From the IMG/VR virus record IMGVR_UViG_3300049855_000239, positions 1 to 64,000 of that record: a stretch of 64,000 nucleotides of DNA, one strand, 5' to 3'. Positions within the stretch are counted from its first letter, which is position 1, and each line of letters opens with the position of its first letter. Both the position numbers and the translations under genes were made by a program. Positions 2,467 to 44,606 of the stretch are shown here, in pieces. The notes beneath the pieces were generated by a model. It was not told the origin of the DNA. It worked only from the letters and a program-made list of their open reading frames with translations, and ran no database searches. The stretch is from a virus.

Positions 2467-2700
2467 AATAGTTTTAAAACGGCAATGCGTTATTTCTTGA
2501 AGTGGCCAATCATCATCGTTATACATTCTTGTTTCACCAGTTGAGAATTTTACTTCAACATCTTCATAATTAGCTTCTGATAGTTTTTTAGAAAGCTCCT
2601 TTCTTTTTTCATCATTTACTGTATAATCAAAAACAAACCATTCGCTAACGTTGTGTTCAAGCTGTTGTGGCGTTTCTTGGGTGTTGCTATTTTTTTCCAT
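2461..2700 (-). CDS. cassette protein with hairpin-encoded leader (MEKNSNTQETPQQLEHNVSE...)
   Basis: ATG at 2700 lies inside hairpin 2643-2774; stop TAA is supplied by the GTTA arm at 2460. Confidence 0.6.
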   Translation of the reverse strand: MEKNSNTQETPQQLEHNVSEWFVFDYTVNDEKRKELSKKLSEANYEDVEVKFSTGETRMYNDDDWPLQEITHCRFKTIR

Positions 2701-2774
2701 TTTACTATCAGTTTTTCGGTGGATACATTTTCGACATTTCATGCCACAAAAGCATGAACACTTCCTTGTTATAT
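2643..2774 (+). repeat. attC-like hairpin
   Basis: CGCTAAC..GTGTTCAAGCTGTTGTGGC / GCCACAAAAGCATGAACAC..GTTATAT; central CGGTGGATA. Confidence 0.8.
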
Positions 2775-2862
2775 GCAATGCTAAAATTTCCTTCGGGATT
2801 TTCTAGCATCTTTTCTACACTAGCCACGTCTCCGTTCAGCCACCGCAAGCCCAAATGCGTGT

Positions 2863-3654: not shown

Positions 3655-4098
3655 CTAGTCGAGAATGCACCAATCTTCCGAAATACAATCGTTGACACTT
3701 GGAACCCATGTACTGACAGTTCCGTCTACATTTTTGATTGCCAAATAAGGATTGTAGTAAACTTTTCCATCTTCATCTGCAATAGACTTACCTATATCGG
3801 TAGAGAATGGATAACGATTTGCAGGGATAAAGTAAACAAACATACCTTTTCCGTTCCAACCTTTTCTAGCAACTTTTTTACCAAGTTTCAACGCTTCCAA
3901 CGCTAATCCAAACGTTAATTCACTTATGTTTCTATATGCTTTTTCAAACACATCTTTTGGACTCCATGAAATATAACCATCTTCATAAACGACTTTGTAG
4001 CCTTCTTCTCCAGCGACAACCTTTCCCGATTCATCGGAGAACTCTTTCGCATCCATTGGAGTTGCGACAATTAATTTGACACCAATATACTTTTCCAT
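3655..4098 (-). CDS. DUF2829-domain phage protein
   Basis: YIGVK...GYKVVYEDGYISWSPKDVFEKAY plus TFGLALEALKLGKKVARKGWNGKGMF...WVPSVND..EDW. Confidence 0.85.
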   Translation of the reverse strand: MEKYIGVKLIVATPMDAKEFSDESGKVVAGEEGYKVVYEDGYISWSPKDVFEKAYRNISELTFGLALEALKLGKKVARKGWNGKGMFVYFIPANRYPFSTDIGKSIADEDGKVYYNPYLAIKNVDGTVSTWVPSVNDCISEDWCILD

Positions 4099-4158
4099 TT
4101 TATTTGTTGGGTTTTATAACTCCGCCCAGAAGTTTATCGGTTGACAAAAAACGGCAGC

Positions 4159-4290
4159 CCATAACACTATATTTATGTAACAGGTGGCGTTTTTGGTTAT
4201 TTTCACTTTATTGCTCCCAGCTTATGTTTTGGCGGTGGATAGCTACGTCTTCGCTCATGCCACCTATTGCATAAATACCTAGCGTTAGCG
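4159..4290 (+). repeat. attC-like hairpin
   Basis: CCATAAC-ACTA-TATTTATGTAACAGGTGGC / GCCACCTATTGCATAAATA-CCTAGC-GTTAGCG; central CGGTGGATA. Confidence 0.85.
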
Positions 4291-4296
4291 GAAAGT

Positions 4297-4509
4297 CTAA
4301 GAAGTGACTGGTAAATCGACCGACATTGTAAAAATCGAGAATTTTCCGTTTTCTGAATGACTTTCAGCTTCTTCTCTATTTTCAAAAACTGGTAGAAATC
4401 CGTAAAGACCGCCTAGTTTATCCGAACAAGGAAGTCCAGTAATCGGATTTGTATATTCTATCATGGTTGATAATTTTGATACCATGAAAAGCTCTTTTTT
4501 GTTTGACAT
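4297..4509 (-). CDS. hypothetical cassette protein
   Basis: ORF inside segment 4284-4755. Confidence 0.6.
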   Translation of the reverse strand: MSNKKELFMVSKLSTMIEYTNPITGLPCSDKLGGLYGFLPVFENREEAESHSENGKFSIFTMSVDLPVTS

Positions 4510-4511
4510 AG

Positions 4512-4712
4512 TTAAACGATTTGAGATTCAATTATAGGTTCTTTTGTTTCATGTGGTGGATATCCACGAAACGACACCATTATCATTTTGAAGAAATGAA
4601 AGAAAATTCTAACGATTCCATTAACAACGAAATAAAGAACCATTGCGATAATGCAGTACGAGCCAACGAAGACCCAAAAACTGCTAACTGTAAATTTTAA
4701 TAATTCTAACAT
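4512..4712 (-). CDS. small membrane protein (cassette)
   Basis: hydrophobic 66-aa ORF inside segment 4284-4755. Confidence 0.6.
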   Translation of the reverse strand: MLELLKFTVSSFWVFVGSYCIIAMVLYFVVNGIVRIFFHFFKMIMVSFRGYPPHETKEPIIESQIV

Positions 4713-4748
4713 TTTGATAAATTTATACGTGAAGAAAAAAGACTATTC

Positions 4749-4878
4749 CGCTAACACTGTGCTTATGAAATTTTGGGGCTTTACTGTTTTGGATGGCGTT
4801 TTGCCCTCACGTAGTTCCCAGCGGTGGAGACTTTCGTCTCCATAAATCCCCAAATTTCAGAAGCACTTAGCGTTAGCA
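4749..4878 (+). repeat. attC-like hairpin
   Basis: CGCTAAC-ACT-GTGCTTATGAAATTTTGGGG / CCCCAAATTTCAGAAGCAC-TTAGC-GTTAGCA; central CGGTGGAGA. Confidence 0.85.
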
Positions 4879-4884
4879 GTAAAT

Positions 4885-5256
4885 TTAAGAGAGTCCAAAT
4901 ACTCTCATTAGATTACTGAATAATAATTCCTTTATTGTATCAAAATTTTCTTGCCCTTTTTTTAATGATAAATATTCTGGAGTCCAAAATCCATTATTAT
5001 TACCGTCATAAACTCTTATTTCTGTTTGTGAATATGCTATTTCAAAACATAAATTACGGTCTGGCCTCATACCATAGCTTCCAAAAACGATAGAAACCTG
5101 TTGCCCAAAATAAGAACCATCTCCATCATAGCTTATATCGCACGTTTCTAATTTAGGAAGCATTTTACTAAACTCTTCTATAAAATCAGGGTCATTACAC
5201 GGCTTTATGCCATCTATTTGTTTCCAGTTACTGATGTATTCACTTAATATTTTCAT
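4885..5256 (-). CDS. hypothetical cassette protein
   Basis: single ORF filling segment 4872-5296. Confidence 0.7.
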   Translation of the reverse strand: MKILSEYISNWKQIDGIKPCNDPDFIEEFSKMLPKLETCDISYDGDGSYFGQQVSIVFGSYGMRPDRNLCFEIAYSQTEIRVYDGNNNGFWTPEYLSLKKGQENFDTIKELLFSNLMRVFGLS

Positions 5257-5289
5257 TTTTGAATAATTTAACGGTTAAAAAAAATCTAC

Positions 5290-5420
5290 TGCTAACACTG
5301 TATTTTCGCATTTTCGGGGCTTGCTGGTAGTTCTAGCTTCACACCGTTAGGCTAGTTCACCAGCGGGGGATACAGCCGTCTTCGTCACTCCCGAAATTGC
5401 GTAAATACCGTTCGTTAGGT
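5290..5420 (+). repeat. attC-like hairpin
   Basis: TGCTAAC-ACT-GTATTTTCGCATTTTCGGG / CCCGAAATTGCGTAAATAC-CGTTC-GTTAGGT; central CGGGGGATA. Confidence 0.85.
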
Positions 5421-5426
5421 GCAATG

Positions 5427-6571
5427 CTAAGAAGGTTCTTGGATATAGCTAAGTATATGAGCAATCACATCTACTGTCCATCCATCACCCAAAAGACAAG
5501 CCGCTTCATTACGTTTTAATATGCTTGTGTACCCTTCCGGTACCGTTTGAAGCCTTTCAAGTTCTGTTTGTGTGAAATATCTCAAATCGCCATCCTGAAA
5601 TACAAAATACTCGTTATTTCGTAAAAGGCAATTAGATTTATCTTTCATCGAACGTCCTCTCCTAGTCTCGCTTGTTGGATAGCTTAAATCTACGGCTTCA
5701 TTATTTGCAATGTCTACAAAGCCTATATTGGTAGCTTCTTTTACTCTCAAATAGGTTTCCTTGTCTTTTGTAATTAATGTCGTAAAGCCACTATTAAAAA
5801 CCGATGCGCCATTTTATGTTGTTGTTTCAATGGTCGGCTTTCGCTTTCCAAAATGCAACGGCTCTTTTCCATTTGAACAAATCCACTTTCCAAAATAGAT
5901 TGTAGTTTTATTTTCTTGTCTTTTGGTTCAGGTATTCTACAATATCTAAATCCAAATAGGTCGAATGATTCCGGACCTATGTTTGTCCAATAAAATCTAT
6001 TCCTCATTTGAGCCGAAACCAATTCACTATTTATGTTCACTGGATATGTTCCCATGTACTGGCTTATCAGTTCCATATTTTTATCGGTCATGGCTACATT
6101 TTCCAATAGAAAATATTTTGGCTTTAGTGCTTTTAGAAGTCTCAAATACTCAAAAAACAATCCTGATTTTTCGCCTTGCAATCCTTTGCGTTCTTTGTTT
6201 GCTAAACTAAAATCTTGGCATGGGCTACCTCCAATTAATAAATCGATCTTTGGTAGGTTTTCAGGTTGTATATTTCTTATGTCTCCTAGCTGTATTGTAT
6301 TCGGGTAGTTGTGTTGTGTTACTTTTATTGCGTGTGCTTTTATCTCACTTGCATAGTATTGTCCGTACTTTATTCCGGCTTTATTTAAGGCAATTTGTCC
6401 GCAACTCATACCATCAAACAAAGAAAGCACTGCACCTAACACAAGCTTTGAATTATGCAAGGGTGTACTGGTTATTTGGGCTTCACACATATCAGATAAT
6501 TTTCCATAGTTTATACTTTTTGGCGGTTCAGCCTTGCACAATACAAAGCCATTGTCGTTAGTAGTAATCAT
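5427..6571 (-). pseudogene. C5 DNA cytosine methyltransferase split by a 1-nt frameshift (ORFs 5774-6571 and 5427-5750)
   Basis: motifs VLSLFDGMSCG, GGSPCQ, LLENV, RNR in first ORF; ELERLQTVP...LGDGWTVDVI in second; frames join at the T5 run 5796-5800. Confidence 0.8.
6434..6563 (+). repeat. attC-like hairpin (translated as the N-terminus of the methyltransferase ORF)
   Basis: ACCTAAC-ACAA-GCTTTGAATTATGCAAGG / CCTTGCACAATACAAAGC-CATTGTC-GTTAGTA; central GGCGGTTCA. Confidence 0.85.
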
Positions 6572-7411: not shown

Positions 7412-7526
7412 GTCCTTGTCGTTTTGTTGAATCAAAGGTAACATAAAAATTGCAAACTGCAATATATTATTATCACAATTTGCAATATTTTTTAGTCTAC
7501 CATCAGCGGACAAAGAAAATGACTAC

Positions 7527-7579
7527 TACTAACACTGTATATACGCCATTAAAACGGGCGTATATACCTAGCGTTAGGC
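7527..7579 (+). repeat. minimal (53 bp) attC-like hairpin
   Basis: TACTAAC-ACT-GTATATACGCC-ATTAAAACG-GGCGTATATAC-CTAGC-GTTAGGC. Confidence 0.9.
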
Positions 7580-7774
7580 GATATTTTTAGAAGCCTTAAA
7601 CCGTACTAACAACTGACTAAATATCATGTCTGTATCGGTTGTTTTAACTGGAACGCTCATATGAAATGAATTACCTCCACTATGACACATTTTACTTAAC
7701 TCCTCGGTAGCAATTTTTACCAGTTCTTCATCTGGCATTTCTGCCTGTAATTGTCTAAATTCTTCTATGCTCAT
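7574..7774 (-). CDS. hypothetical cassette protein
   Basis: fills segment 7573-7821; stop codon supplied by the GTTA arm. Confidence 0.7.
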   Translation of the reverse strand: MSIEEFRQLQAEMPDEELVKIATEELSKMCHSGGNSFHMSVPVKTTDTDMIFSQLLVRFKASKNIA

Positions 7775-7814
7775 TTTGATATTGGTTACGGTTTGATAAA
7801 TAAATAAAACAATC

Positions 7815-7943
7815 GCCTAACATGATATTTAGTCATTTAAGGGCGTTCTGGGATCGGTTCTGTACTCGCATTAGTTGGCGTCCCACGGCGGATAGTTTCG
7901 TCTCTGTCACTCCCTTAAAAGCCCAAATACATGTTCGTTAGCT
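7815..7943 (+). repeat. attC-like hairpin (near-copy of 17061-17190)
   Basis: GCCTAAC-ATGATATTTAGTCATTTAAGGG / CCCTTAAAAGCCCAAATACATGTTC-GTTAGCT. Confidence 0.85.
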
Positions 7944-8016
7944 GCAACTATAATAATCACAACAACTCGACATTTATGTCAAATATACTATCTTTATACT
8001 TTATAATACTAAAGAT

Positions 8017-8862
8017 ATGCTAATAAATTACGGAGGAGAATTTCCTTTCAAAATGACCGACTTGTATGACAAGCTTGAACTTAGTCCGTCACAGTATAAT
8101 AGATGGACTAAAGCCAATCTACTAGAGTCATTTTATATAGAACTTGACTATGAGGCGGTACTCGACATGATGTCGAGTACCCCAAAAGGCGGTAAACTAA
8201 GACAAGAATACAGACTAACAAGACGTACTGCAGAAGAACTTGCGCTTCTATCTCGAACACAAAAGGGGAAAGAACTAAGAAAGTGGCTACTTGACTTAAA
8301 GGACAAAGTTGAGTCTAATGAATTATTAACATTAGAACAAGTCTATTTCTTAATTGACTTAGTTAATGCGTTTTCTTTTGTTGCACATCAAAAAGCAATT
8401 GAAGAATCACATAAACAATCATTTATAAACAACTATATTGATGAATACGGCAAAGTAAATATATCTGAAATATGTTCTAAGTTTAATTATTTAAGAAATG
8501 AGATTTTGGATATTTCGCCAGACATAATAAAAGAACGGATATTAAGATTTTATGATGAGGAAAAGCGACTTGTAAATAAGAAAACGAAACGAGAAGTACT
8601 TGCTGTTATTGATAAGTTTTCTTTAGTAGGAAATGCAGCATTTGACTTCATGGCATCTATTCAAAAACCATTAGACACAGCATCTAAAGTTGGAGAGATG
8701 GTAAAAGGAATGGCAACTAGATTAAATATTGAGATTAGAGACAAAAATGAGGCAGATCTTTTTAATGATGAGATTAAACTAAATCCAACAATCATGCAGA
8801 AAGTAAATCCATTTATAGGCAAGCCAAAACTTGATCCTAAAATCACAAAAAAACTAAAATAG
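8017..8862 (+). CDS. AntA/AntB-type antirepressor domain protein
   Basis: DLYDKLEL..QYNRW...DY....GGKLRQEYRLT...AEELALLSRTQKGKELRKWL. Confidence 0.75.
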   Translation: MLINYGGEFPFKMTDLYDKLELSPSQYNRWTKANLLESFYIELDYEAVLDMMSSTPKGGKLRQEYRLTRRTAEELALLSRTQKGKELRKWLLDLKDKVESNELLTLEQVYFLIDLVNAFSFVAHQKAIEESHKQSFINNYIDEYGKVNISEICSKFNYLRNEILDISPDIIKERILRFYDEEKRLVNKKTKREVLAVIDKFSLVGNAAFDFMASIQKPLDTASKVGEMVKGMATRLNIEIRDKNEADLFNDEIKLNPTIMQKVNPFIGKPKLDPKITKKLK

Positions 8863-8866
8863 CTGC

Positions 8867-8996
8867 AGCTAACACAGTATTTAAGAAACCTAGGGCTATA
8901 TGAATTATTATTCATTATTCACATTTCATTAGTTTTTAGCGGTGGAGAATTTCGTCTCCGTCAATCCCTAAGTTTCTTAAATACATTGCGTTAGCG
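8867..8996 (+). repeat. attC-like hairpin
   Basis: AGCTAAC-ACA-GTATTTAAGAAACCTAGGG / CCCTAAGTTTCTTAAATAC-ATTGC-GTTAGCG; central CGGTGGAGA. Confidence 0.85.
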
Positions 8997-9632
8997 GAAA
9001 CCGTGAGGACATTCAACACGATCGAAACTGTAAACCCAAACCCACGGATTTAGATCCCAACTATCATTTCCATTAATTTTTTGCCAAAGCGACCTATAAG
9101 ACCTTTGGGCATTTGAACACCATACCGATGGGTCTTTATTGGTATAGCATACAAAATTTCTTGGACTAAATCTGCAATTCTCGACACCTTCGCTTATCGC
9201 ATCTATTTCTGAAATGTCGTTTAGCCTTTCGACTCTAACATTTGTAACTTTTAGAAATAACCGACAAGCCTCTTTTGGCATAAATAGGCTTGGTTTCCAT
9301 TTAGCAGACTCACAGCCAGATTTTATATATTCTTGTCTTAATTCTTCTCCTGAACTCCCTGTATCTGCCCTGTAATGCCAATAATTACGATGATACGTAT
9401 GTGTTTCTCTGACCCAAATAATATCACCAATTTTGACTGGCGATTTCGATAAAGTTTCATCCCAATTTCCTAACGGAACATTATCTTTCAAAGTTCGTCT
9501 TGTTTGGGTCTTGCTTCCATTTAATAATGCTCTGACCATCAGAGTTGAAAAAAGCATCGGTCTAAAAACGGCATCCGCTAACACTGTATTTGATAAATCA
9601 GGGGCGGTATTGGCTTTGGTTGCTGTATTCAT
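8991..9632 (-). CDS. ASCH/PUA-like phage protein with hairpin-encoded leader MNTATKANTAPDLSNTVLAD
   Basis: RPMLFST.MVRALL.G.KTQTRR, GD.IWVRET, WKPSLFMP..ACR, VRVERL..ISE.DA..EG, W..NPWVWV. Confidence 0.8.
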   Translation of the reverse strand: MNTATKANTAPDLSNTVLADAVFRPMLFSTLMVRALLNGSKTQTRRTLKDNVPLGNWDETLSKSPVKIGDIIWVRETHTYHRNYWHYRADTGSSGEELRQEYIKSGCESAKWKPSLFMPKEACRLFLKVTNVRVERLNDISEIDAISEGVENCRFSPRNFVCYTNKDPSVWCSNAQRSYRSLWQKINGNDSWDLNPWVWVYSFDRVECPHGFR

Positions 9633-9706
9633 TTTAGTTTCTATTTTTACGGTGGAGAGTTCCGCCTCCGTCACTCCCTAGTTTTCTTGAACACCTGTCG
9701 TTATAT
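9576..9706 (+). repeat. attC-like hairpin (left ~60 bp identical to 11334-11464 element)
   Basis: CGCTAAC-ACTGTATTTGATAAATCAGGGG...CGGTGGAGA...CCTGTC-GTTATAT. Confidence 0.85.
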
Positions 9707-9735
9707 GATAGTTTAAAATAGCAGCACAAACATGT

Positions 9736-10185
9736 TTAATACTCATCAGGTGCTTTGTTTTTCCAACTACTTGAACTATTCTGCATACGCAAACCTCTTA
9801 AATATCTTGAAGCACATGCAAGTTCACACATCAAAATCCACGCTCTTTCGTTTGGAGAAGAAAAATTCTTTCGTCTTTTCATCTTGTTTTTTTCTTCCTC
9901 TGATAATGCTTCAAAAGCGACACATTCATCGTATCTACGTTCTAGTTCTTTCCAGCAGTCAATATATGGCATCCATTGCTTATGTTGAATCATTACCTTT
10001 TCAATTTGAGGTCTTAAATCAGGCAATTTTCTGAGCATCCTTACACATCGACCAACATCAGAAATATCATGCGGTACATCACATTCCCCAGTTGGTATTC
10101 CTGTAATAGCAGCAAACATTGTTTTTGAAGAAATGCCAGTATCTCTACTTGCTAACCATTCCATCCATTCTTTTTTAACTTCCAT
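9736..10185 (-). CDS. hypothetical cassette protein
   Basis: ORF filling segment 9700-10229; WL...DTGISSKT..P.D..D..RC motif recalls conserved phage hypotheticals. Confidence 0.7.
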   Translation of the reverse strand: MEVKKEWMEWLASRDTGISSKTMFAAITGIPTGECDVPHDISDVGRCVRMLRKLPDLRPQIEKVMIQHKQWMPYIDCWKELERRYDECVAFEALSEEEKNKMKRRKNFSSPNERAWILMCELACASRYLRGLRMQNSSSSWKNKAPDEY

Positions 10186-10222
10186 ATTATTAATTTATTG
10201 CGTTGTAAATAAAAAACCAATC

Positions 10223-10309
10223 ATATAACACTATGTTTCTGATATGGGCGATAAAGTACTGGTAGTTCGGAATTTCCGAATGCCCACATCAGAAACATTT
10301 ACGTTATGC
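10223..10309 (+). repeat. attC-like hairpin (87 bp)
   Basis: ATATAAC-ACT-ATGTTTCTGATATGGGC / GCCCACATCAGAAACAT-TTAC-GTTATGC. Confidence 0.85.
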
Positions 10310-10315
10310 ACAATG

Positions 10316-10582
10316 CTATAATGACGGCAATCCGAGCGAAGAACGTACTTTAGCTTCTGCCAGATTTTTGATAAAATCGCTATCTGAAAGAATCTCTTTT
10401 GCTTTTGCTGCAATCATTTCCTTGAAGTTTAATTCTTGCATTGCCTTATCTAGCCCTTCCCGTAATGCACCTTCTACACACCAATCTAATGCACTTTCAA
10501 AAGCATTTGCCTTATTGGACATAAAAGACTTTTGAAAGTATTCTGTCAATGCCCTTTGAATGTCAGGCATATGAGTTTGCAT
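10316..10582 (-). CDS. hypothetical cassette protein, possibly 5'-truncated
   Basis: ORF present but the matching TAAC arm is absent. Confidence 0.5.
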   Translation of the reverse strand: MQTHMPDIQRALTEYFQKSFMSNKANAFESALDWCVEGALREGLDKAMQELNFKEMIAAKAKEILSDSDFIKNLAEAKVRSSLGLPSL

Positions 10583-10610
10583 TATATTAGCTTCATTTGC
10601 ATTAGTTTAC

Positions 10611-10677
10611 TTTTTGTACGGTTGATACATTCGGCTTCGTTACTCCCGAAAAAGCGTGAATAAGTGTCTCGTTAGGC
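10611..10677 (+). repeat. right half of an attC-like element
   Basis: CGGTTGATAC...ACTCCCGAAAAAGCGTGAATA...C-GTTAGGC, similar to right half of 5290-5420. Confidence 0.7.
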
Positions 10678-10683
10678 GAAATA

Positions 10684-10848
10684 TTAAAAATCACCATCCT
10701 CTAACCCACGAATAACGAAACAAACGAAAGAATAGATTATTGACAAGATGCCACAAAAAAACAATACTTTCAAATGCCCTGTACTTGAAACATTAAAGCA
10801 TATAATTAACCCTAAGCCGATAATGAATAATTTGTCAATGATTTTCAT
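10684..10848 (-). CDS. small two-TM membrane protein (cassette)
   Basis: hydrophobic ORF filling segment 10671-10878. Confidence 0.55.
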   Translation of the reverse strand: MKIIDKLFIIGLGLIICFNVSSTGHLKVLFFCGILSIIYSFVCFVIRGLEDGDF

Positions 10849-10871
10849 GTTGATAAAATTAAAATACATTC

Positions 10872-11002
10872 GCCTAACACAGTACTTATAAAACTGTGGG
10901 CTTTTTTGGTTATTGTTACTTTACTGCGCTCCACTCGCTTTTTTGCGGTGGATAGTGGCGTGGTCTTAAATCCCACAGCTTTAAAAGTACGTGCCGTTAC
11001 CT
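10872..11002 (+). repeat. attC-like hairpin (near-copy of 15319-15449)
   Basis: GCCTAAC-ACA-GTACTTATAAAACTGTGGG / CCCACAGCTTTAAAAGTAC-GTGCC-GTTACCT; central CGGTGGATA. Confidence 0.85.
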
Positions 11003-11003
11003 G

Positions 11004-11390
11004 CTATTTTGCAGACGAGTACCATTCAAATTCCTCATCCATTAATTGATAAGTTGTTTTCGCTTTACCACATTGCAAATCTTTTAAATAAGCAACGCAT
11101 CTTTGTTTAGGTGTCGGTTGTTGATAATTTTCATTTTTACCATCATTTACAGGATAAACCATATAGGTTGTTGCAATATTTTCAAACCAATCAAAAAGCT
11201 TTCCACCACCTAAATCAAATAAATGTCCGAATAAGCAATTTTTACCATCTTTTGTTTTTACTATATCTGTACACCAACTTTCCTCCGTTGTATTTTCCAT
11301 GTAAGTAATAATCACATCTAAAGAAAAAACAGCAGGTAACACTGTATTTGATAAATCAGGGGCGGTATTGGCTTTGGTTGCTGTATTCAT
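11004..11390 (-). CDS. hypothetical cassette protein with hairpin-encoded leader MNTATKANTAPDLSNTVLP
   Basis: first 18 aa identical to leader of 8991-9632 although the rest is unrelated. Confidence 0.75.
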   Translation of the reverse strand: MNTATKANTAPDLSNTVLPAVFSLDVIITYMENTTEESWCTDIVKTKDGKNCLFGHLFDLGGGKLFDWFENIATTYMVYPVNDGKNENYQQPTPKQRCVAYLKDLQCGKAKTTYQLMDEEFEWYSSAK

Positions 11391-11464
11391 TTTAGTTATT
11401 GTTTTTACGGTAGATAAATTCGGCTTCGAAAAGCCCCTGTTTTCTCAAATACTTAGCGTTAGCT
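11334..11464 (+). repeat. attC-like hairpin
   Basis: AGGTAAC-ACT-GTATTTGATAAATCAGGGGC / GCCCCTGTTTTCTCAAATAC-TTAGC-GTTAGCT. Confidence 0.85.
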
Positions 11465-11465
11465 G

Positions 11466-11801
11466 CTATACTAACTGACGCCAAGTTTTACCACTATTGA
11501 ATATTGGGCTTTTTTCGTCAACTAAATTAAGCTTACCAATTAGTTCATGTGCTTGTTGTTTTGATATTTTGCATTTGCCATAATTATCGGAATCATAAAC
11601 TTTTACAAGAGTATATTCATCATTCCACTGGCTTATACTCCAGAAATTATTATCCCACAGTTTTACACATTTATCAATATCGACTTTGCAAGATACTGTA
11701 TTTGGAAATGTCAAAAGCACCTCTGTTAAAATAACAGTACAGCAGCTAACACTATGTTCTCGAACTTGTGGCGTTTTTTCAATCTTGATATTATTTTTCA
11801 T
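11466..11801 (-). CDS. hypothetical cassette protein with hairpin-encoded leader (MKNNIKIEKTPQVREHSVSC)
   Basis: no ATG inside segment 11458-11750 in this frame; nearest ATG is within the hairpin. Confidence 0.6.
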   Translation of the reverse strand: MKNNIKIEKTPQVREHSVSCCTVILTEVLLTFPNTVSCKVDIDKCVKLWDNNFWSISQWNDEYTLVKVYDSDNYGKCKISKQQAHELIGKLNLVDEKSPIFNSGKTWRQLV

Positions 11802-11875
11802 GTCATTTACATTTTTACGGGTGATACTTTCGTGGACTTTACATGCCACAACTTCGTGAACATTTAGCGTTAGTT
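11744..11875 (+). repeat. attC-like hairpin
   Basis: AGCTAAC-ACT-ATGTTCTCGAACTTGTGGC / GCCACAACTTCGTGAACAT-TTAGC-GTTAGTT. Confidence 0.85.
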
Positions 11876-12286
11876 TCAATCTTGTAAAACGAGTTCTTCG
11901 CCAACAAGAGCAAAATATAAGTTCTGTAACTGGTGTACAAATTCAATCAATCTTAAACATGTACCTCGAAACCAAAATTCATTTCCAATAAAATATATGT
12001 CATGATTTTCATCAAAATACCACATCTCGAAATCTTCTGAAATAAATCCAAACCGTTTCTTCCAGTTATTATCTAATGATATAGGGATAATTTCAACCAA
12101 ATTACCATCCTTTATATGATATTCAACATGAAGGATGTTTTCTGGATGAGCAAATATATGAACTTCATCATCTCTAATTTCGACAACATTAAAATGACAG
12201 TTAATATATTCTTCCTCTTCTAATTCTTTCTTAACTTCTTCGTTTATGAAGACAATATTCCCAAATCTTAACTCATTTACTTTCAT
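11876..12286 (-). CDS. conserved Bacteroidota phage hypothetical protein
   Basis: M..NELR.GN.V ... PI.L..... FGF ... VHQLQNLYFAL.GEEL pattern. Confidence 0.75.
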   Translation of the reverse strand: MKVNELRFGNIVFINEEVKKELEEEEYINCHFNVVEIRDDEVHIFAHPENILHVEYHIKDGNLVEIIPISLDNNWKKRFGFISEDFEMWYFDENHDIYFIGNEFWFRGTCLRLIEFVHQLQNLYFALVGEELVLQD

Positions 12287-12313
12287 GGTTTTATGGTTAC
12301 GGTTGACAAAAAA

Positions 12314-12372
12314 AAGACTAAAACTACGGTGGATTTATTCGGCTTCGAAAAGCCCCTGTTTTCTCAAATACT
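12314..12372 (+). repeat. collapsed attC-like element
   Basis: arm AAGACTAAAACTA fused directly to CGGTGGA, then TTCGGCTTCGAAAAGCCCCTGTTTTCTCAAATACT identical to 11419-11453. Confidence 0.7.
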
Positions 12373-12468
12373 CTTTAAATACAGTGCAAATGTAGCATTT
12401 AAATAATCTAAAAAAAATATTATTTTGATTTTTTATTTATCTTTTTAGTGCTTACATTTGTTCCACTA
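12372..12468. repeat. 97-bp inverted repeat copy 1, divergent promoter pair
   Basis: reverse complement of 17890-17986; TACATTTG box near each end facing outward. Confidence 0.9.
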
Positions 12469-14760: not shown

Positions 14761-14806
14761 GTTTTAATTAAATTAAATTGTTATAATTAGTGCAAATAAA
14801 AACGGC

Positions 14807-14936
14807 TTATAACGTTGTATTTTCGCACTTAATGGCATTCTGGTTTACATCACTTCACTTGCATTCATTCAGGCTACTACAGTGGATAAATTCGACTCTG
14901 TTCATCCATTAAATGCGTAAATAGTCTTCGTTAGGT
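14807..14936 (+). repeat. attC-like hairpin
   Basis: TTATAAC..TATTTTCGCACTTAATGG / CCATTAAATGCGTAAATA..C-GTTAGGT; central CAGTGGATA. Confidence 0.85.
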
Positions 14937-14942
14937 GAAAAA

Positions 14943-15320
14943 CTAAGAGTCAAGGCAAGTTCTAACCTTTGCTCTTAATTCAGCTCCTTTTGGGTCGTTT
15001 TCTAAATGTGAACTGACTTCTTCGAGTAAGTCAATCATTTCCTTTATCCATTTTGGATGTTCTAAAATTTCAGATTCTTTGTCTTGATAATTGTCTAATA
15101 AAATGCCCAAATTTAACGGAACTATAAAAGATCTGTCAGGTATTTTTTTAGCCACATCAGCAATTTCTTCATTTGCTCGTGTGGTATCATATCCATCATT
15201 TTCTTTTATAATTTCTTCAAGTGAGTTAAGATATTCTCTTACTTCGTTCAGTTCTTTTTCGGTGCATTTTGCGACCGTTAATTGTTTTACTACAGTTGGC
15301 ATAATCAAGAAGTTCTTCAC
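14943..15320 (-). CDS. hypothetical cassette protein
   Basis: fills segment 14930-15325. Confidence 0.7.
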   Translation of the reverse strand: MKNFLIMPTVVKQLTVAKCTEKELNEVREYLNSLEEIIKENDGYDTTRANEEIADVAKKIPDRSFIVPLNLGILLDNYQDKESEILEHPKWIKEMIDLLEEVSSHLENDPKGAELRAKVRTCLDS

Positions 15321-15449
15321 CTAACACAGTACTTATAAAACTGTGGGTTTTTTGGGTTGTTGTTACATTTTTGCGCTCCACTCACTTTTTGGCGGTGGAT
15401 AGTGGCGTGGTCATTACTCCCACAGCTTTATAAGTACGTGCCGTTAGCG
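15319..15449 (+). repeat. attC-like hairpin
   Basis: ACCTAAC-ACA-GTACTTATAAAACTGTGGG / CCCACAGCTTTATAAGTAC-GTGCC-GTTAGCG. Confidence 0.85.
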
Positions 15450-15455
15450 GAAACC

Positions 15456-15719
15456 TTAAAACCTTCTAGGCATTTTAAGGTAATCGCAACAAAAGTTTGA
15501 TACAACTTCAAATGTTGATTGAAGTTTGCTTTTGCCAATTTCATTTGGTTTTTGAGCAACAACACCGCTTCCATCATCAAATTTGGTTATCATTATTCCT
15601 CCACATGTAATACTGAATTGATATTCCTCCCCTTTTTCTTTGTCAGTAGGGAGGTTTTCTATTTTTTCAATTACTGGCATCAGTAAATCCATACTTTCAT
15701 TAAAAGCAAGTTTGCCCAT
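15456..15719 (-). CDS. hypothetical protein, probably 5'-truncated cassette
   Basis: F..S.D.LMPVIEKIE pattern typical of a phage family C-terminal half; no matching TAAC arm. Confidence 0.5.
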   Translation of the reverse strand: MGKLAFNESMDLLMPVIEKIENLPTDKEKGEEYQFSITCGGIMITKFDDGSGVVAQKPNEIGKSKLQSTFEVVSNFCCDYLKMPRRF

Positions 15720-17032: not shown

Positions 17033-17060
17033 AGTAAATAGGATTAAAATAAAACTTTGC

Positions 17061-17190
17061 CACTAACATGATATTTAGTCATTTAAGGTCATTCTGGTGT
17101 CGGTTCTGTACTCGCATTCGGTTAGTTTTCTACGGTGGATAAATTCGGCTCTGTCACTCCCTTAAAAGCCAAAATACATGTTCGTTATAC
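17061..17190 (+). repeat. attC-like hairpin, right-most of array
   Basis: CACTAAC-ATGATATTTAGTCATTTAAGG...CGGTGGATA...CCTTAAAAGCCAAAATACATGTTC-GTTATAC. Confidence 0.85.
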
Positions 17191-17196
17191 GATATT

Positions 17197-17517
17197 TTAA
17201 CAGTAGAACGGCAAGCAGTACCAAACATCTTTTACTTTGGTATATATTTCACCTTCAAATGAATCGCCCTCTAGTCCAATGCTTCTTTGGTCAATATAAA
17301 CATCCTTGAATATCCCAAAGCCATTGTTTTGTTTATCTCCTTTTGGATTGTCAACTATTGTTATCTTTTCTGATATTTCGCAGCAGTCAGTTAAGCGATC
17401 AAAGTCTTTTTTAGCTTTTTCACCAAATGATTTTATTATATCATCATTGTGCTTTGCTACCTCTGCATTGTATTCGCTTAGTTCTTTATACATTAAATCT
17501 TCTTCTTCCTTAGTCAT
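17197..17517 (-). CDS. hypothetical protein
   Basis: 106-aa acidic ORF. Confidence 0.65.
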   Translation of the reverse strand: MTKEEEDLMYKELSEYNAEVAKHNDDIIKSFGEKAKKDFDRLTDCCEISEKITIVDNPKGDKQNNGFGIFKDVYIDQRSIGLEGDSFEGEIYTKVKDVWYCLPFYC

Positions 17518-17889: not shown

Positions 17890-17986
17890 TAGTGGAACAA
17901 ATGTAAGCACTAAAAAGATAAATAAAAAATCAAAATAATATTTTTTTTAGATTATTTAAATGCTACATTTGCACTGTATTTAAAGA
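17890..17986. promoter_or_regulatory. 97-bp inverted repeat copy 2, divergent promoters driving the array (leftward) and replication module (rightward)
   Basis: Bacteroidota -7 box TACATTTG on each strand; exact reverse complement of 12372-12468. Confidence 0.85.
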
Positions 17987-43706: not shown

Positions 43707-44606
43707 TTATTTAGAATGTTTATAAACAATACCGCTTTCTTTTACAATAATAAAATCCCCAATAGGCGATTCAAATATTCCCAAGAAATCCTCAAAGCTG
43801 ACATAATCGCCTACGTTTACATTCAATACTTCATCCCCAATAAAAGCCACTTCTCCTTTAGGAAGAAACTTCCTATGTGATTCAGGAATAAACACACCAC
43901 CTTCTGTTTTGTCTTTTTCGGGTTCAGGAGAAATAAGAATATAATCTTCTACTACCACAAATTCATCAGTATGCTTAATAGCAAACACATCCGATTCTTT
44001 CATGGCATAATAGACTTTGCCATTTATCGTCACCTCGGAATTTGAGTTAGGAAGAAAGTAAACATCACATCCACGATAGTTATTTGAATAAACAATCGTA
44101 CCACAATTCAAATGCTTTTTGACTTCCGACTGTATAAACAGCCCACTACTTGTCTTAATTTCGTCCTCGCTTTGAAAAATAGGCTCTAGTAAGATAAAAT
44201 TCTTGTTCATCAGAATATCTTCGCCACGAGTAACGCATATTGCCCTCCAAGCAGGTAGCAGATAAGTGAACGACATTTTAATGTTTCCGTTCTTGTCTAC
44301 TTCACCCCAAAGCTTTTTCTTTTCAATCTCACGATCTTTGTTTAGTGCCGACCAGTAAAAGTGAACCGTATCGCCTACTTCAAATACAGTAGCACCACCT
44401 TCTTTTTCGCACCTTTCAGTTAATCGTTGTGGCGTGGCAATAATTGTGGCATACGTTTTCTTGTACTTATTCGGGTTATAAAGAATATCCTTTTCATCCA
44501 ATGAAATTGTCTTCTCAAAGAACTGCGAAGAACTATTTCCTACGATTAAACCTGTTTCATACAGGCAATCTAGTTCTATGATGTAATTATCTAATACTCC
44601 TTTCAT
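43707..44606 (-). CDS. GroES/Cpn10-like co-chaperonin with tandem domains
   Basis: FILLEPI..TSSGLFI...G.IVY and DYILISPEPEK.KTEGGVFIP...KGEVAFIG....VNVGDYV. Confidence 0.75.
   Translation of the reverse strand: MKGVLDNYIIELDCLYETGLIVGNSSSQFFEKTISLDEKDILYNPNKYKKTYATIIATPQRLTERCEKEGGATVFEVGDTVHFYWSALNKDREIEKKKLWGEVDKNGNIKMSFTYLLPAWRAICVTRGEDILMNKNFILLEPIFQSEDEIKTSSGLFIQSEVKKHLNCGTIVYSNNYRGCDVYFLPNSNSEVTINGKVYYAMKESDVFAIKHTDEFVVVEDYILISPEPEKDKTEGGVFIPESHRKFLPKGEVAFIGDEVLNVNVGDYVSFEDFLGIFESPIGDFIIVKESGIVYKHSK

What the first reader, a model, noticed from the sequence alone, without database searches (positions are those of the whole stretch)
8991..11464. Recombination sites encode interchangeable N-terminal leader peptides
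Seen: two unrelated cargo proteins (8991-9632 and 11004-11390) begin with the identical MNTATKANTAPDLSNTVL, encoded in the shared left half of hairpins 9576 and 11334 and read through GTTA into the cargo. The same is seen for 2461-2700 (MEKNSNTQETPQQLEHNVS) and 11466-11801 (MKNNIKIEKTPQVREHSVS). In some cassettes the GTTA arm also supplies the TAA stop (2461, 7574, 8991). Inference: the site is a plug-in translation start module, so start-less gene bodies become expressed when captured and expression can depend on the adjacent hairpin and frame.
Basis: partly seen in the sequence, partly recalled or inferred. Interest (0 to 1): 0.85.

Follow-up and report, generated by a model that had tools for sequence, protein, structure and literature searches.

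The report
Translated hairpin joints between phage cassettes
Between the small accessory genes of this Flavobacteria-type phage sit about 18 copies of an integron-attC-like DNA hairpin that marks where genes are swapped between phages, and in roughly four of ten copies it also carries the start codon and first ~18 amino acids of the next gene.

Summary
ORFs 8991-9632 and 11004-11390 begin with the same 18 residues because a 61-nt stretch (9579-9639 = 11337-11397) is identical. That stretch is the loop and 3' arm of a ~125-nt imperfect hairpin. The window holds 18 copies, all in gene sense, at 2.6-17.2 kb. The stems covary. The TAAC/GTTA end boxes are invariant in 14 of 14 aligned copies.

The family also occurs in other uncultured phages, cultured Flavobacterium Muminvirus phages, Polaribacter phage P12002L (where attC sites/CALINs were published) and 18 of 151 sampled Bacteroidota genomes. 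In the bacterial arrays it lies antisense to the ORFs.

Cassette breakpoints in near-identical genomes fall on the TAAC(G) box. Leaders are also exchanged at the GTTA box.

Loop ATGs that read through the 3' arm lie in the cargo frame in 21 of 50 elements, against 5 and 3 in the other frames. Several methyltransferase bodies have no nearby ATG of their own. One cargo family carries seven leader types, while other members have their own Met.

No integrase is encoded by three phages carrying the family, and I found no link to integron integrases.

Verdict: attC-like cassette joints that double as translated 5' gene ends. This is a new variant of a known kind. The recombination mechanism is unresolved.

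The parts
2636..2782 (-). Hairpin element. Its loop ATG at 2700 reads through the 3' arm into ORF 2461-2700, whose next in-frame ATG is 119 nt past GTTA.
   Evidence: CM R1 114 bits; frame table; no homologues of the cargo other than itself.
4152..4298 (-). Hairpin element with no read-through. The downstream Tad2-like gene 3655-4098 has its own ATG at +63.
4742..4886 (-). Hairpin element with no loop ATG. The next gene 4512-4712 has its own ATG at +39.
5283..5428 (-). Hairpin element. The next gene 4885-5256 has its own ATG at +36.
6427..6571 (-). Hairpin element with a different loop. It lies wholly inside the open frame of the C5 methyltransferase ORF 5774-6571. An ATG at 6490 (-54) reads MCEAQ... 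A homologous element plus methyltransferase occurs in phage G001.
   Evidence: CM 88 bits; (L042 118-261).
7520..7587 (-). Short form of the element, a ~47-nt hairpin without the long loop. The TAA of its box is the stop of ORF 7574-7774.
   Evidence: CM 43 bits; fold z -4.6.
7808..7951 (-). Hairpin element downstream of a host-type -7 box at 7987. The loop ATG opens a 12-codon ORF that stops inside the 3' arm. 85-93% identical to element 17054-17198.
   Evidence: (D14, D16).
8860..9004 (-). Hairpin element at the end of the leftward unit, convergent with the + strand gene 8017-8862. The TAA of its box is the stop of ORF 8991-9632.
   Evidence: CM 132 bits; fold z -8.4.
9569..9714 (-). Chimeric element. 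Its loop and 3' arm are identical to 11337-11397, and its 5' arm is not complementary to them. The ATG at 9632 gives leader MNTATKANTAPDLSNTVL fused to an ASCH-like cargo.
   Evidence: (z -0.31).
8991..9632 (-). ASCH-like cargo ORF as read from the loop ATG. Homology to phage homologues starts at residue 24, and an own Met is at residue 26.
   Evidence: tblastn: of 25 rows listed, 16 start at residue 24. Annotated starts of two homologues lie 3 and 7 residues before that.
10216..10317 (-). Medium-length form of the element. The next gene 9736-10185 has its own ATG at +40.
   Evidence: CM 36 bits; fold z -4.7.
10537..10685 (-). Half element with 5' arm and core but no 3' arm. ORF 10316-10582 starts where the loop ATG usually lies.
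   Evidence: CM 40.7 bits; sequence.
10865..11010 (-). Hairpin element with no loop ATG. 90% identical over 131 nt to element 15312-15457, with unrelated flanks.
   Evidence: (D8).
11327..11472 (-). Hairpin element. The ATG at 11390 gives leader MNTATKANTAPDLSNTVL fused to cargo 11004-11390.
   Evidence: CM 133 bits.
11004..11390 (-). Cargo ORF whose conserved block (PAVFSLDVII.Y.E.T.E.SWC) begins right at the junction. Its first internal Met (residue 31) lies inside that block.
   Evidence: 87 homologue clusters. 11 carry 7 different leader types joined at L|PAVFSLD. The others have an own Met.
11737..11883 (-). Hairpin element. The ATG at 11801 gives leader MKNNIKIEKTPQVREHSVS fused to cargo 11466-11801, which has no ATG near the junction (GTG +26, TTG +32).
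12303..12372 (-). Half element (5' arm and core, 94% identical to that of 11327-11472) directly downstream of the leftward promoter-like box at 12394.
   Evidence: D2; 13.4 bits, E 0.51; joint 11404->12325 in a contig of another sample.
14800..14944 (-). Hairpin element in the third leftward unit. The next gene has its own ATG at +49.
15312..15457 (-). Hairpin element, twin of 10865-11010.
17054..17198 (-). Hairpin element, twin of 7808-7951.
12372..12468 (.). One copy of a 97-nt perfect inverted repeat. It holds host-type -7 boxes (TAnnTTTG) in both directions. The leftward one at 12394 would drive the cassette operon 12286->8991.
   Evidence: (I1). The promoter consensus is recalled, not tested.
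17890..17986 (.). Second, inverted copy of the 97-nt repeat. It has -7 boxes at 17905 (leftward, unit 17517->14389) and 17964 (rightward, genes from 17996).

Best explanation
The repeats are attC-like folded-DNA cassette joints, forming a phage-borne array of the CALIN kind. Each is an imperfect hairpin with invariant TAAC...GTTA end boxes, a 2-nt bulge, a covarying stem and a variable loop.

The same family forms arrays of small ORFs in Bacteroidota chromosomes. There the hairpin follows each ORF in the opposite orientation. In the phages the cassettes are the other way round with respect to transcription. The strand with the A-rich loop is the mRNA, and each hairpin lies just upstream of its ORF, inside long leftward operons that appear to start at host-type promoter motifs.

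Bacteroidota start sites need an open, A-rich context rather than a Shine-Dalgarno sequence (recalled). A start codon is therefore tolerated either in the loop or about 30 nt or more past the stem. In about 40% of long-form copies the gene uses the loop ATG. The 3' arm is then translated as a ~18-22-residue hydrophilic leader whose sequence is dictated by the stem.

Gene flow happens at the hairpin. It occurs mostly at the TAAC(G) box, where the unit is hairpin plus downstream ORF. It also occurs at the GTTA box and in the loop core, which re-pairs cargos and leaders. The identical MNTATK... leader on two cargos is one such event.

Shown: the family, its structure, its distribution, the breakpoints and the frame bias. 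Inferred: translation of the leaders, folding as DNA and/or RNA, and the enzyme or process that recombines.
For: Family and structure:
- 18 sense copies in the window.
- TAAC and GTTA invariant in 14 of 14 aligned copies.
- 15 of 22 pairs carry compensatory changes.
- Short and long forms exist.

Distribution:
- Two other virus records, four more viral contigs and metagenome contigs.
- Three cultured Muminvirus genomes.
- Polaribacter phage P12002L, with CM hits of 24.0 and 22.5 bits and two more hairpins seen by eye between methyltransferase genes. Qi et al. 2023 predicted a CALIN in that phage and showed IntI1 recombination of one site (PMC9892861, section 3.4 and passages).
- 18 of 151 sampled Bacteroidota genomes. 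One array has six copies between ORFs that include Imm63 and a cupin. 13 of 14 hits there are antisense to the neighbouring ORFs.

Breakpoints at TAAC(G):
- All five junctions among three 99.8-100% identical Muminvirus genomes.
- Three different continuations after the stop plus CCAACG of one cargo.
- A three-cassette difference against a contig of another sample, bounded by CGTTAG.

Exchange at GTTA or in the loop:
- The 61-nt identity ends at GTTA.
- Seven leader types are found on one cargo family.
- A contig in another sample has the ASCH-like cargo behind a different 3' arm.

Leader use:
- 21 against 5 and 3 in the frame test.
- Methyltransferase bodies in G002 and G001 start at GST-LYHADC, RST-FYQGDC and AQVFSRLFFGDC with no nearby own ATG.
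- tblastn of the G002 enzyme: of 30 rows listed, the 17 non-Flavobacterium phages align from residues 21-25, and the 13 Flavobacterium phages align from residue 7, inside the leader.
- GenBank annotators placed the start of tooticki6-1 gp005 at the loop ATG.
Against: - No tyrosine recombinase (PF00589) is encoded by any of the three virus records with the family; two are rated 100% complete.
- At genome level the family is not linked to integron integrases. TIGR02249 scores above cut-off in 4 of 18 genomes with the hairpins and 46 of 133 without (Fisher p 0.42). In those four the two features are never adjacent.
- The model finds nothing (best 12.6 bits) within 10 kb of the integrase in four genomes.
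- The R'-like box fits GTTRRRY fully in only 4 of 17 copies.
- Clean breakpoints at both ends of the hairpin, and one in the loop, are not what integron recombination (one crossover at G|TT) predicts.
- I could not run IntegronFinder or HattCI.
- No proteomic or ribosome data exist, and gene callers favour long ORFs.
- 11 of 18 copies in this window do not read through.
Confidence: 0.55

Rival explanations
1. The element acts purely as RNA. It would be an intercistronic hairpin in long early transcripts that controls processing, stability or translation, like the RNase III sites between T7 early genes (recalled). Shuffling would be a by-product of homologous or short-homology recombination between the repeated copies, as with PeSLs of T4-like phages. 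No folded-DNA site is involved.
For: - All 18 copies are in transcript sense, inside units that begin at host-type -7 boxes. None of the 11 minus-strand -7 motifs in 1-20 kb lies in an element.
- Main-stem G.U pairs number 81 on the sense strand and 28 on the antisense strand over 40 elements.
- The loop holds an A-rich stretch and often an ATG at one alignment column (9 of 14).
- Loop-core crossovers exist.
- The phage encodes an AAA_24 (Sak4-like) protein that could anneal short homologies (function recalled).
Against: - The G.U excess rests mostly on one conserved closing pair. Without it the count is 41 against 28, p 0.15.
- In bacterial arrays the same hairpin lies antisense to the ORFs (13 of 14 hits), so a sense-RNA role cannot be its common function.
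- Breakpoints sit on 5-7-nt boxes at the stem base, too short for ordinary homologous recombination.
- No Rfam family matches.
Confidence: 0.2
2. The element is a selfish palindromic repeat of the REP/MITE kind. It would spread by itself into intergenic space, for instance at CTAG with TA duplication, and the leaders would be accidents.
For: - Near-identical copies have unrelated flanks on both sides: 10869-10999 against 15316-15446 at 90%, and 7817-7940 against 17063-17187.
- Contigs from other samples match exactly one element from TAAC to GTTA and then diverge.
- One bacterial chromosome has nine copies, in ones and twos, scattered over 5 Mb.
- The flanks are often C|TAAC...GTTA|G (10 and 11 of 14, read).
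Against: - 18 of 18 copies share one orientation, and every one lies exactly at a gene boundary.
- Indels in near-identical genomes add or remove hairpin plus ORF together, not the hairpin alone.
- No transposase was seen in the ORFs scanned, though only 20 ORFs were scanned.
- The strong in-frame bias of loop ATGs is not expected of accidents.
Confidence: 0.08
3. The leaders are not made. Translation would start at internal ATG/GTG/TTG codons of each cargo, and the open frames through the 3' arm would be a side effect of stem composition and of gene callers choosing the longest ORF.
For: - The ASCH-like cargo has Met26 right at the start of homology.
- Cargo 11466-11801 has GTG +26 and TTG +32.
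- The 3' arm is A-rich and poor in stop-forming triplets in some frames.
- No expression data were found.
Against: - Through-reading loop ATGs favour the cargo frame 21:5:3.
- In cargo 11004-11390 and in three methyltransferases the first own ATG lies inside or beyond the conserved N-terminal block.
- Seven unrelated leader types all keep the frame open and start with ATG 17-21 codons upstream of one junction.
- Homologues without a hairpin have an ATG exactly at the junction.
Confidence: 0.12

Closest known systems
Integron attC sites and clusters of attC lacking an integrase (CALINs), including those reported in virulent phages (Qi et al. 2023, PMC9892861; section 3.4 and passages read)
   Same: - Imperfect inverted repeats of ~50-140 nt with conserved AAC/GTT at the outer boxes, an asymmetric bulge and a variable centre.
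- One per small ORF, in co-oriented arrays.
- Natural breakpoints at the box that corresponds to G|TT.
- No integrase in the element itself (the CALIN condition).
- Cargo rich in DNA methyltransferases and anti-defence genes.
- Short-form copies are present in Polaribacter phage P12002L, one of the phages in that paper.
   Different: - In the phages the ORFs are inverted relative to the hairpin compared with the bacterial arrays of the same family, so the hairpin precedes its ORF in the transcript.
- Breakpoints also occur at the second box and in the loop.
- No association with integron integrases was found.
- Arrays are much larger than the two-site minimum the paper mentions (18 copies here).
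- The loop and arm are coding.
Translation helpers inside integron sites: ORF-11/ORF-17/ORF-18 of attI1 and short ORFs within attC (review PMC8876359, sections 3.1 passages and 3.2 read)
   Same: - A start codon with a good initiation context lies inside a recombination site and serves cassettes that lack their own initiation region.
- Translation through the stem is thought to melt the hairpin.
- The stop or frame depends on the neighbouring cassette.
   Different: - In those integron sites the small ORFs end and the cassette gene re-initiates (coupling). In the phage elements the loop ORF is fused in frame to the cargo and becomes its N-terminus.
- Those integron sites rely on a Shine-Dalgarno sequence. 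The phage elements have an A-rich loop and no SD.
PeSLs (promoter-early stem-loops) of T4-like phages (PMC2839356 and PMC4122927; abstracts read)
   Same: Short conserved intergenic motifs with a stem-loop that flank variable ORFs in hyperplastic regions. They act as points of exchange between otherwise unrelated sequences.
   Different: - PeSLs are promoter-terminator composites and recombine by homology.
- These hairpins hold no host-type promoter motif.
- They are not followed by a T run.
- Their breakpoints lie on 5-7-nt boxes at the stem base.
- They are partly coding.
REP/BIME and MITE-like palindromic repeats of bacterial genomes (recalled)
   Same: Intergenic imperfect palindromes, many copies, discrete ends, also dispersed in chromosomes.
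   Different: Strict single orientation, one per gene boundary, movement together with an ORF, and in-frame coding use.

Membership tests
Integron attC site / CALIN | Imperfect inverted repeat of ~57-141 nt with conserved 5'-AAC and GTT-3' in the outer (R''/R') boxes | tested here: met
   TAAC and GTTA are invariant in 14 of 14 aligned copies. Core lengths are 47-138 nt over 40 elements.
Integron attC site / CALIN | R' box fits GTTRRRY | tested here: inconclusive
   Of 17 copies, 4 match 7/7, 6 match 6/7, 6 match 5/7 and 1 matches 4/7 (that last box was mis-located by the script).
Integron attC site / CALIN | Folded strand with extrahelical bases and an unpaired spacer at canonical positions | tested here: inconclusive
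   A conserved 2-nt bulge follows an ~8-bp basal stem on the sense 5' arm. Whether this matches the canonical extrahelical bases could not be settled. The canonical geometry is recalled only.
Integron attC site / CALIN | Two or more sites close together, one per cassette ORF, co-oriented | tested here: met
   18 co-oriented copies in 15 kb of the window. Six copies in 3.7 kb of a bacterial chromosome.
Integron attC site / CALIN | Cassette boundaries (crossover) at G|TT of one box | tested here: met
   All five junctions among three near-identical Muminvirus genomes lie at TAAC(GTT). However, exchanges at the other box and in the loop also occur.
Integron attC site / CALIN | Recognised by the attC models of IntegronFinder/HattCI | not testable with these tools
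   The models are not available here, and Rfam gave no match.
Integron attC site / CALIN | Recombined by an integron integrase | not testable with these tools
   Only the published IntI1 assay on one P12002L site bears on this. No integrase in three phages. No genome-level link to TIGR02249. No hairpins within 10 kb of the integrase in four genomes.
PeSL (promoter-early stem-loop) | Contains an early promoter next to the stem-loop | tested here: not met
   None of the 11 minus-strand TAnnTTTG motifs in 1-20 kb lies in an element. The consensus is recalled, and phage-specific promoters are not covered.
PeSL (promoter-early stem-loop) | Exchange by homologous recombination within the conserved motif | tested here: inconclusive
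   Loop-core joints exist: 11404->12325 and the chimera 9569-9714. Most breakpoints, however, lie on 5-7-nt boxes.
REP/MITE-like repeat | Element inserts alone (filled against empty site), in either orientation | tested here: not met
   Indels comprise hairpin plus ORF. 18 of 18 copies share one orientation. No empty/filled pair was seen in the three genomes compared.
Known RNA families (Rfam 15) | Match to a curated covariance model | tested here: not met
   0 matches at gathering score in the window. Only a 20-bit glmS chance match appears at E<=1 in 2-18.5 kb.

The most novel reading that the evidence does not exclude
Flavobacteria-type phages run an integrase-independent cassette system. 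One structured element would be at once the recombination joint (stem base), the translation start pad (A-rich loop with ATG) and a disposable N-terminal peptide (3' arm). ORF bodies without starts could then be exchanged between leaders and still be expressed. The same hairpin family would be used in the opposite orientation in bacterial chromosomal arrays.
Probability: 0.35. Interest if true: 0.85.

Novelty: new variant of a known kind. Interest (0 to 1): 0.62.

Why it matters
- Variable gene sets. It would explain how the accessory, anti-defence part of these phage genomes (methyltransferases, a Tad2-like gene, many ORFans) is reshuffled gene by gene. In cultured Baltic Flavobacterium phages the methyltransferase set was linked to plating efficiency (PMC7077304, passages read).
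- Coding through a folded site. It shows a folded recombination-type site being read as protein. This bears on how cassettes without their own start signals are expressed in hosts that do not use Shine-Dalgarno sequences.
- Annotation. The N-termini of many annotated phage proteins would be stem-encoded filler, which affects annotation, expression constructs and structure prediction.
- Orientation contrast. Phage arrays have the hairpin sense and upstream of the ORF. Bacterial arrays have it antisense and downstream. This gives a handle on which strand and which box matter.
- Testability. Cultured phage-host pairs exist, so the idea is directly testable.

Tried and rejected
- Rfam. No family at gathering score. 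One chance-level glmS match at E 0.37.
- Promoter inside the element. The host-type -7 motif was scanned and none lies in an element. Sigma-70-like and ECF-like readings of the core (TGAC...N16...CGTA) were considered by eye. I dropped them because the -35-like part is not conserved and other lineages have a different loop.
- Intrinsic terminator. The stem is not followed by a T run on either strand.
- Integrase in the phage. None found.
- Link to integron integrases in bacteria. None found. The recombinase 2.5 kb from two hairpins in one chromosome scores below cut-off for integron integrase (170.6 against 265) and equally well as XerC/D.
- Strand test by G.U pairs. The 81:28 count looks strong, but it drops to 41:28 (p 0.15) once the single conserved closing G.U is removed. 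Whole-element energies do not differ clearly: 23 against 17 elements, Wilcoxon p 0.056. I do not lean on it.
- Polarity of extrahelical bases compared with canonical attC. I could not settle this from recall and left it open.
- Chi-like reading of the core (CGGTGGA). Considered but not testable, so not claimed.
- RNA evidence. No RNA holder was listed for the stretch.
- The joint 8895->9650 in one contig has only 28 nt on one side, so I did not interpret it.
- Contigs of other samples are short assembly pieces. Their ends at repeats may partly reflect assembly breaks, so I used only those that run on with unlike sequence.
- The long-form DNA pattern found only one true bacterial contig among species genomes. 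The covariance model later found the family in 18 of 151 genomes, so the pattern scan was too strict and its near-blank is withdrawn.
- Cargo 2461-2700 has no homologues, so its start cannot be judged by comparison.
- Supplements of PMC9892861 (attC coordinates) and PMC7077304 (methyltransferase table) could not be seen and may bear on the P12002L and Muminvirus claims.

Full report
**What the window is.** The window is the first 64 kb of a 72.7-kb linear virus record rated about 69% complete. It shows weak nucleotide matches to Cellulophaga and Flavobacterium phages. Genes scanned include DnaB, a Sak4-like AAA_24 protein, a SNF2-methylase fusion, a C5 methylase and a Tad2-like protein. Between 2.4 and 17.5 kb lie three leftward runs of small ORFs.

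**The observation.** ORFs 8991-9632 and 11004-11390 share their first 18 residues.
- The cause is a 61-nt run of identity, 9579-9639 = 11337-11397. It starts exactly at the TAAC/GTTA box and fades in the loop. Beyond GTTA the two cargos differ at once.
- The leaders of 2461-2700 and 11466-11801 resemble each other only where they cross conserved stem nucleotides. They read the box in another frame, GTT AGC rather than GTG TTA.
It is a property of a repeat, not of a conserved peptide.

**The repeat.** Repeat finding, a motif scan and an alignment of 14 copies define the element. In gene sense it reads (C)TAACG, 3-4 nt, a ~19-nt arm, a core (TGAC.GAG.CGAA..TATCCACCGTAAAAA), ~35 variable A-rich bases, the complementary arm, then AGT-GTTAG.
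- TAAC and GTTA are invariant in 14 of 14 copies.
- RNAalifold predicts 22 pairs, 15 with compensatory changes.
- A covariance model (R1) finds 18 sense copies in the window. These include a 47-nt short form (7520-7587), a medium form (10216-10317) and two half copies (10537-10685, 12303-12372). It finds none between 17.2 and 72.7 kb. Weaker plus-strand hits are mirror images of the same palindromes.
- Single copies fold with z of -4 to -8.4. The exceptions are 9569-9714 (z -0.31), 2636-2782 (-0.94) and 7809-7951 (-1.48).
- Copy 9569-9714 is a chimera. Its 3' half is that of 11327-11472, and its 5' arm does not match it.

**Transcription context.** Host-type -7 motifs (TAnnTTTG, recalled consensus) on the gene strand lie at 12394, 7987 and 17905, not in the elements. 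The first and third sit in a 97-nt perfect inverted repeat (12372-12468 / 17890-17986) that holds such boxes in both directions. The elements are therefore internal to long operons and are transcribed in sense.

**Are the leaders used? This window.**
- The frame of the next gene is open back to a loop ATG at -54 or -55 from the end of GTTA in 5 of 18 copies (2636, 6427, 9569, 11327, 11737).
- One more (8860) opens an ORF antisense to a real gene.
- 11 of 18 have a stop in frame and an own ATG at +5 to +100.

**Are the leaders used? Across loci.**
- I examined 50 long-form elements with a downstream ORF of at least 50 aa, from the window and nine other loci. Three further elements were dropped because no such ORF followed.
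- Loop ATGs that read through the 3' arm are in the cargo frame in 21 elements, in frame +1 in 5 and in frame +2 in 3 (chi-square p 4e-5).
- One of the 21 (window 14800) is followed by a stop before the gene, so 20 are fusions.
- Some elements are homologous between genomes, so the counts are not fully independent.

**Homologue tests.**
- *ASCH-like cargo.* Of 25 tblastn rows listed, 16 start at query residue 24, 1 at 25, 6 at 17 and 2 at 3. Two annotated homologues start 3 and 7 residues before residue 24. The cargo has its own Met at 26. The leader is therefore dispensable here.
- *Cargo 11466-11801.* Four homologues carry other leaders that read through a GTTA-type box. Three have an own Met at the junction. 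At DNA level one contig has ATG five codons before the shared sequence and no hairpin. Four contigs have a hairpin with a 29-codon leader and no junction ATG.
- *Cargo 11004-11390.* Of 87 homologue clusters, 11 carry leaders of 7 types, all joined in frame at L|PAVFSLD. The other 76 begin with their own Met a few residues before the conserved block. The query's first internal Met lies inside that block.
- *N6/N4 methyltransferases in phages G002 and G001.* These begin at the loop ATG and have no ATG near the junction. For one, the first own ATG lies beyond the GDC motif. In tblastn of the G002 enzyme, the 17 listed non-Flavobacterium phage rows align from residues 21-25. The 13 Flavobacterium phage rows align from residue 7, inside the leader.
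- *Annotation.* In cultured phage tooticki6-1 the annotated start of gp005 is the loop ATG of a hairpin.

Together this makes translation of the leaders likely in a large minority of cassettes, but it is inference from sequence. No RNA run was listed (recorded under Tried and rejected).

**Where genes are exchanged: the TAAC(G) box.**
- Three Muminvirus genomes that are 99.8-100% identical elsewhere differ by cassettes. All five junctions lie at the sense 5' box. Three different hairpin-plus-gene units follow ...CTAACGTT. One unit is inserted between two TAACGTT boxes. One is inserted between two TATAAC boxes. The variable region ends at a lone TATAAC.
- In metagenome contigs one cargo is followed, right after its stop and CCAACG, by three different hairpins and genes.
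- A contig from another sample lacks three cassettes of the window, with the joint at CGTTAG of 11868.
- So the usual mobile unit is hairpin plus its downstream ORF.

**Where genes are exchanged: the GTTA box and the loop.**
- The 61-nt identity ends at GTTA.
- Seven leader types sit on one cargo.
- A contig has the ASCH-like cargo at about 94% identity behind a different 3' arm, with the frame still open for the 11 codons visible.
- A loop-core joint runs 11404->12325.
- Contigs from other samples also match single elements from TAAC to GTTA, or single cargo bodies (10995-11339), and then run on unlike.

**Distribution.**
- The family is in two further virus records, four more viral contigs, two of them with arrays of seven, and metagenome contigs.
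- It is in the Muminvirus genomes.
- It is in Polaribacter phage P12002L as short forms.
- It is in 18 of 151 sampled Bacteroidota genomes at E<=1e-4.
- One chromosome has six copies in 3.7 kb between ORFs that include Imm63 and a cupin. There and in three other loci, 13 of 14 hits are antisense to the neighbouring ORFs. The hairpin follows the stop by about 11 nt and precedes the next ATG by about 45 nt. That is the layout of integron cassettes.
- The box that is the breakpoint in the phages is then the distal box, where G|TT crossover is expected (paper passage; geometry otherwise recalled).

**Comparison with integrons.**
- Qi et al. 2023 predicted CALINs in virulent phages, including P12002L, and showed IntI1 recombination of one of its sites. 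I infer, but cannot confirm without the supplement, that these are the hairpins found here.
- Against plain membership, there is no integrase in three phages.
- Integron-integrase hits above cut-off occur in 50 of 151 genomes. They occur in only 4 of the 18 genomes with the hairpins, against 46 of 133 without, and are never adjacent to the hairpins.
- Nothing matches within 10 kb of the integrase in four genomes.
- The box fits GTTRRRY fully in 4 of 17 copies.
- Breakpoints occur at both boxes.
- Integron literature already knows start codons in sites: attI1 ORF-11/17/18 and short ORFs in attC (review). Those work by coupling, not as fused N-termini.

**Mechanism, as far as it goes.**
- Shown: a structured, covarying hairpin family; its boxes as breakpoints; the orientation contrast between phages and bacteria; and a frame bias for loop starts.
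- Inferred: the loop presents an open A-rich start site. Starts are in the loop or at least ~30 nt past the stem, and rarely in between. The 3' arm is translated as filler.
- Unresolved: what recombines. Candidates are a host integrase acting in trans, or stalling and template switching (or short-homology annealing) at the stem base. I rate these about equally.

**Verdict.** The leader is usually part of its own cassette rather than a universal plug, and the enzymology is open.

Noticed in passing
window 12372-12468 and 17890-17986: A 97-nt perfect inverted repeat 5.4 kb apart. Each copy holds TAnnTTTG boxes in both directions, so it looks like a duplicated bidirectional promoter heading four transcription units. 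Perfect identity suggests recent conversion, an invertible segment or an assembly effect.
   Followed up: partly
window 5427-5750 and 5774-6571: The C5 cytosine methyltransferase is split into two ORFs: N-terminal motifs in 5774-6571 and the C-terminal part in 5427-5750. Phage G001 has one ORF of over 300 aa behind a homologous hairpin (L042 118-261).
   Followed up: partly
window 3655-4098: A Tad2-like (Thoeris anti-defence 2) domain protein is one of the cassettes (Pfam E 9e-24). The array therefore carries counter-defence cargo.
   Followed up: no
window, 12 nt upstream of TAAC of 8 elements (e.g. 4298, 4886, 5428, 10317, 10685, 14944, 15457, 17198): The stop codon of the upstream ORF lies exactly 12 nt before TAAC in 8 of 17 elements. 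The flanks just outside TAAC/GTTA are often complementary (consensus ..TTnCAGC|TAAC ... GTTA|GCnGCAG). The stem, and perhaps the unit, may therefore extend about 10 bp beyond the boxes. In methyltransferase cassettes the codons G-S-T after the box belong to this outer stem.
   Followed up: partly
loops of elements in L040, L041, L047, L060 against the window: There are at least two loop types. The window's main type has the core TATCCACCGTAAAAA. Muminvirus and several metagenome copies have AGAATTACTAAACTTTAAAAT instead. Only the boxes and the stem architecture are shared.
   Followed up: no
151 sampled Bacteroidota genomes: 50 of 151 genomes have a hit above cut-off to the integron-integrase model TIGR02249 (290-497 bits). 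Yet no inverted-repeat array was evident within 10 kb in the two loci looked at (L075, L076).
   Followed up: partly
window 23223-25424: One 733-aa ORF combines SNF2/ResIII helicase domains with an N6_N4 DNA methylase domain.
   Followed up: no
window 43707-44606: A 299-aa ORF has a C-terminal Cpn10 (GroES-like) domain (E 2.5e-15).
   Followed up: no
L072 8637-9842 (bacterial genome G066): A 401-aa Xer/IntI-like tyrosine recombinase lies 1.7 kb from two hairpin copies and is co-oriented with the ORFs. It scores below cut-off for integron integrase (170.6 against 265) and equally well for XerC/D.
   Followed up: partly
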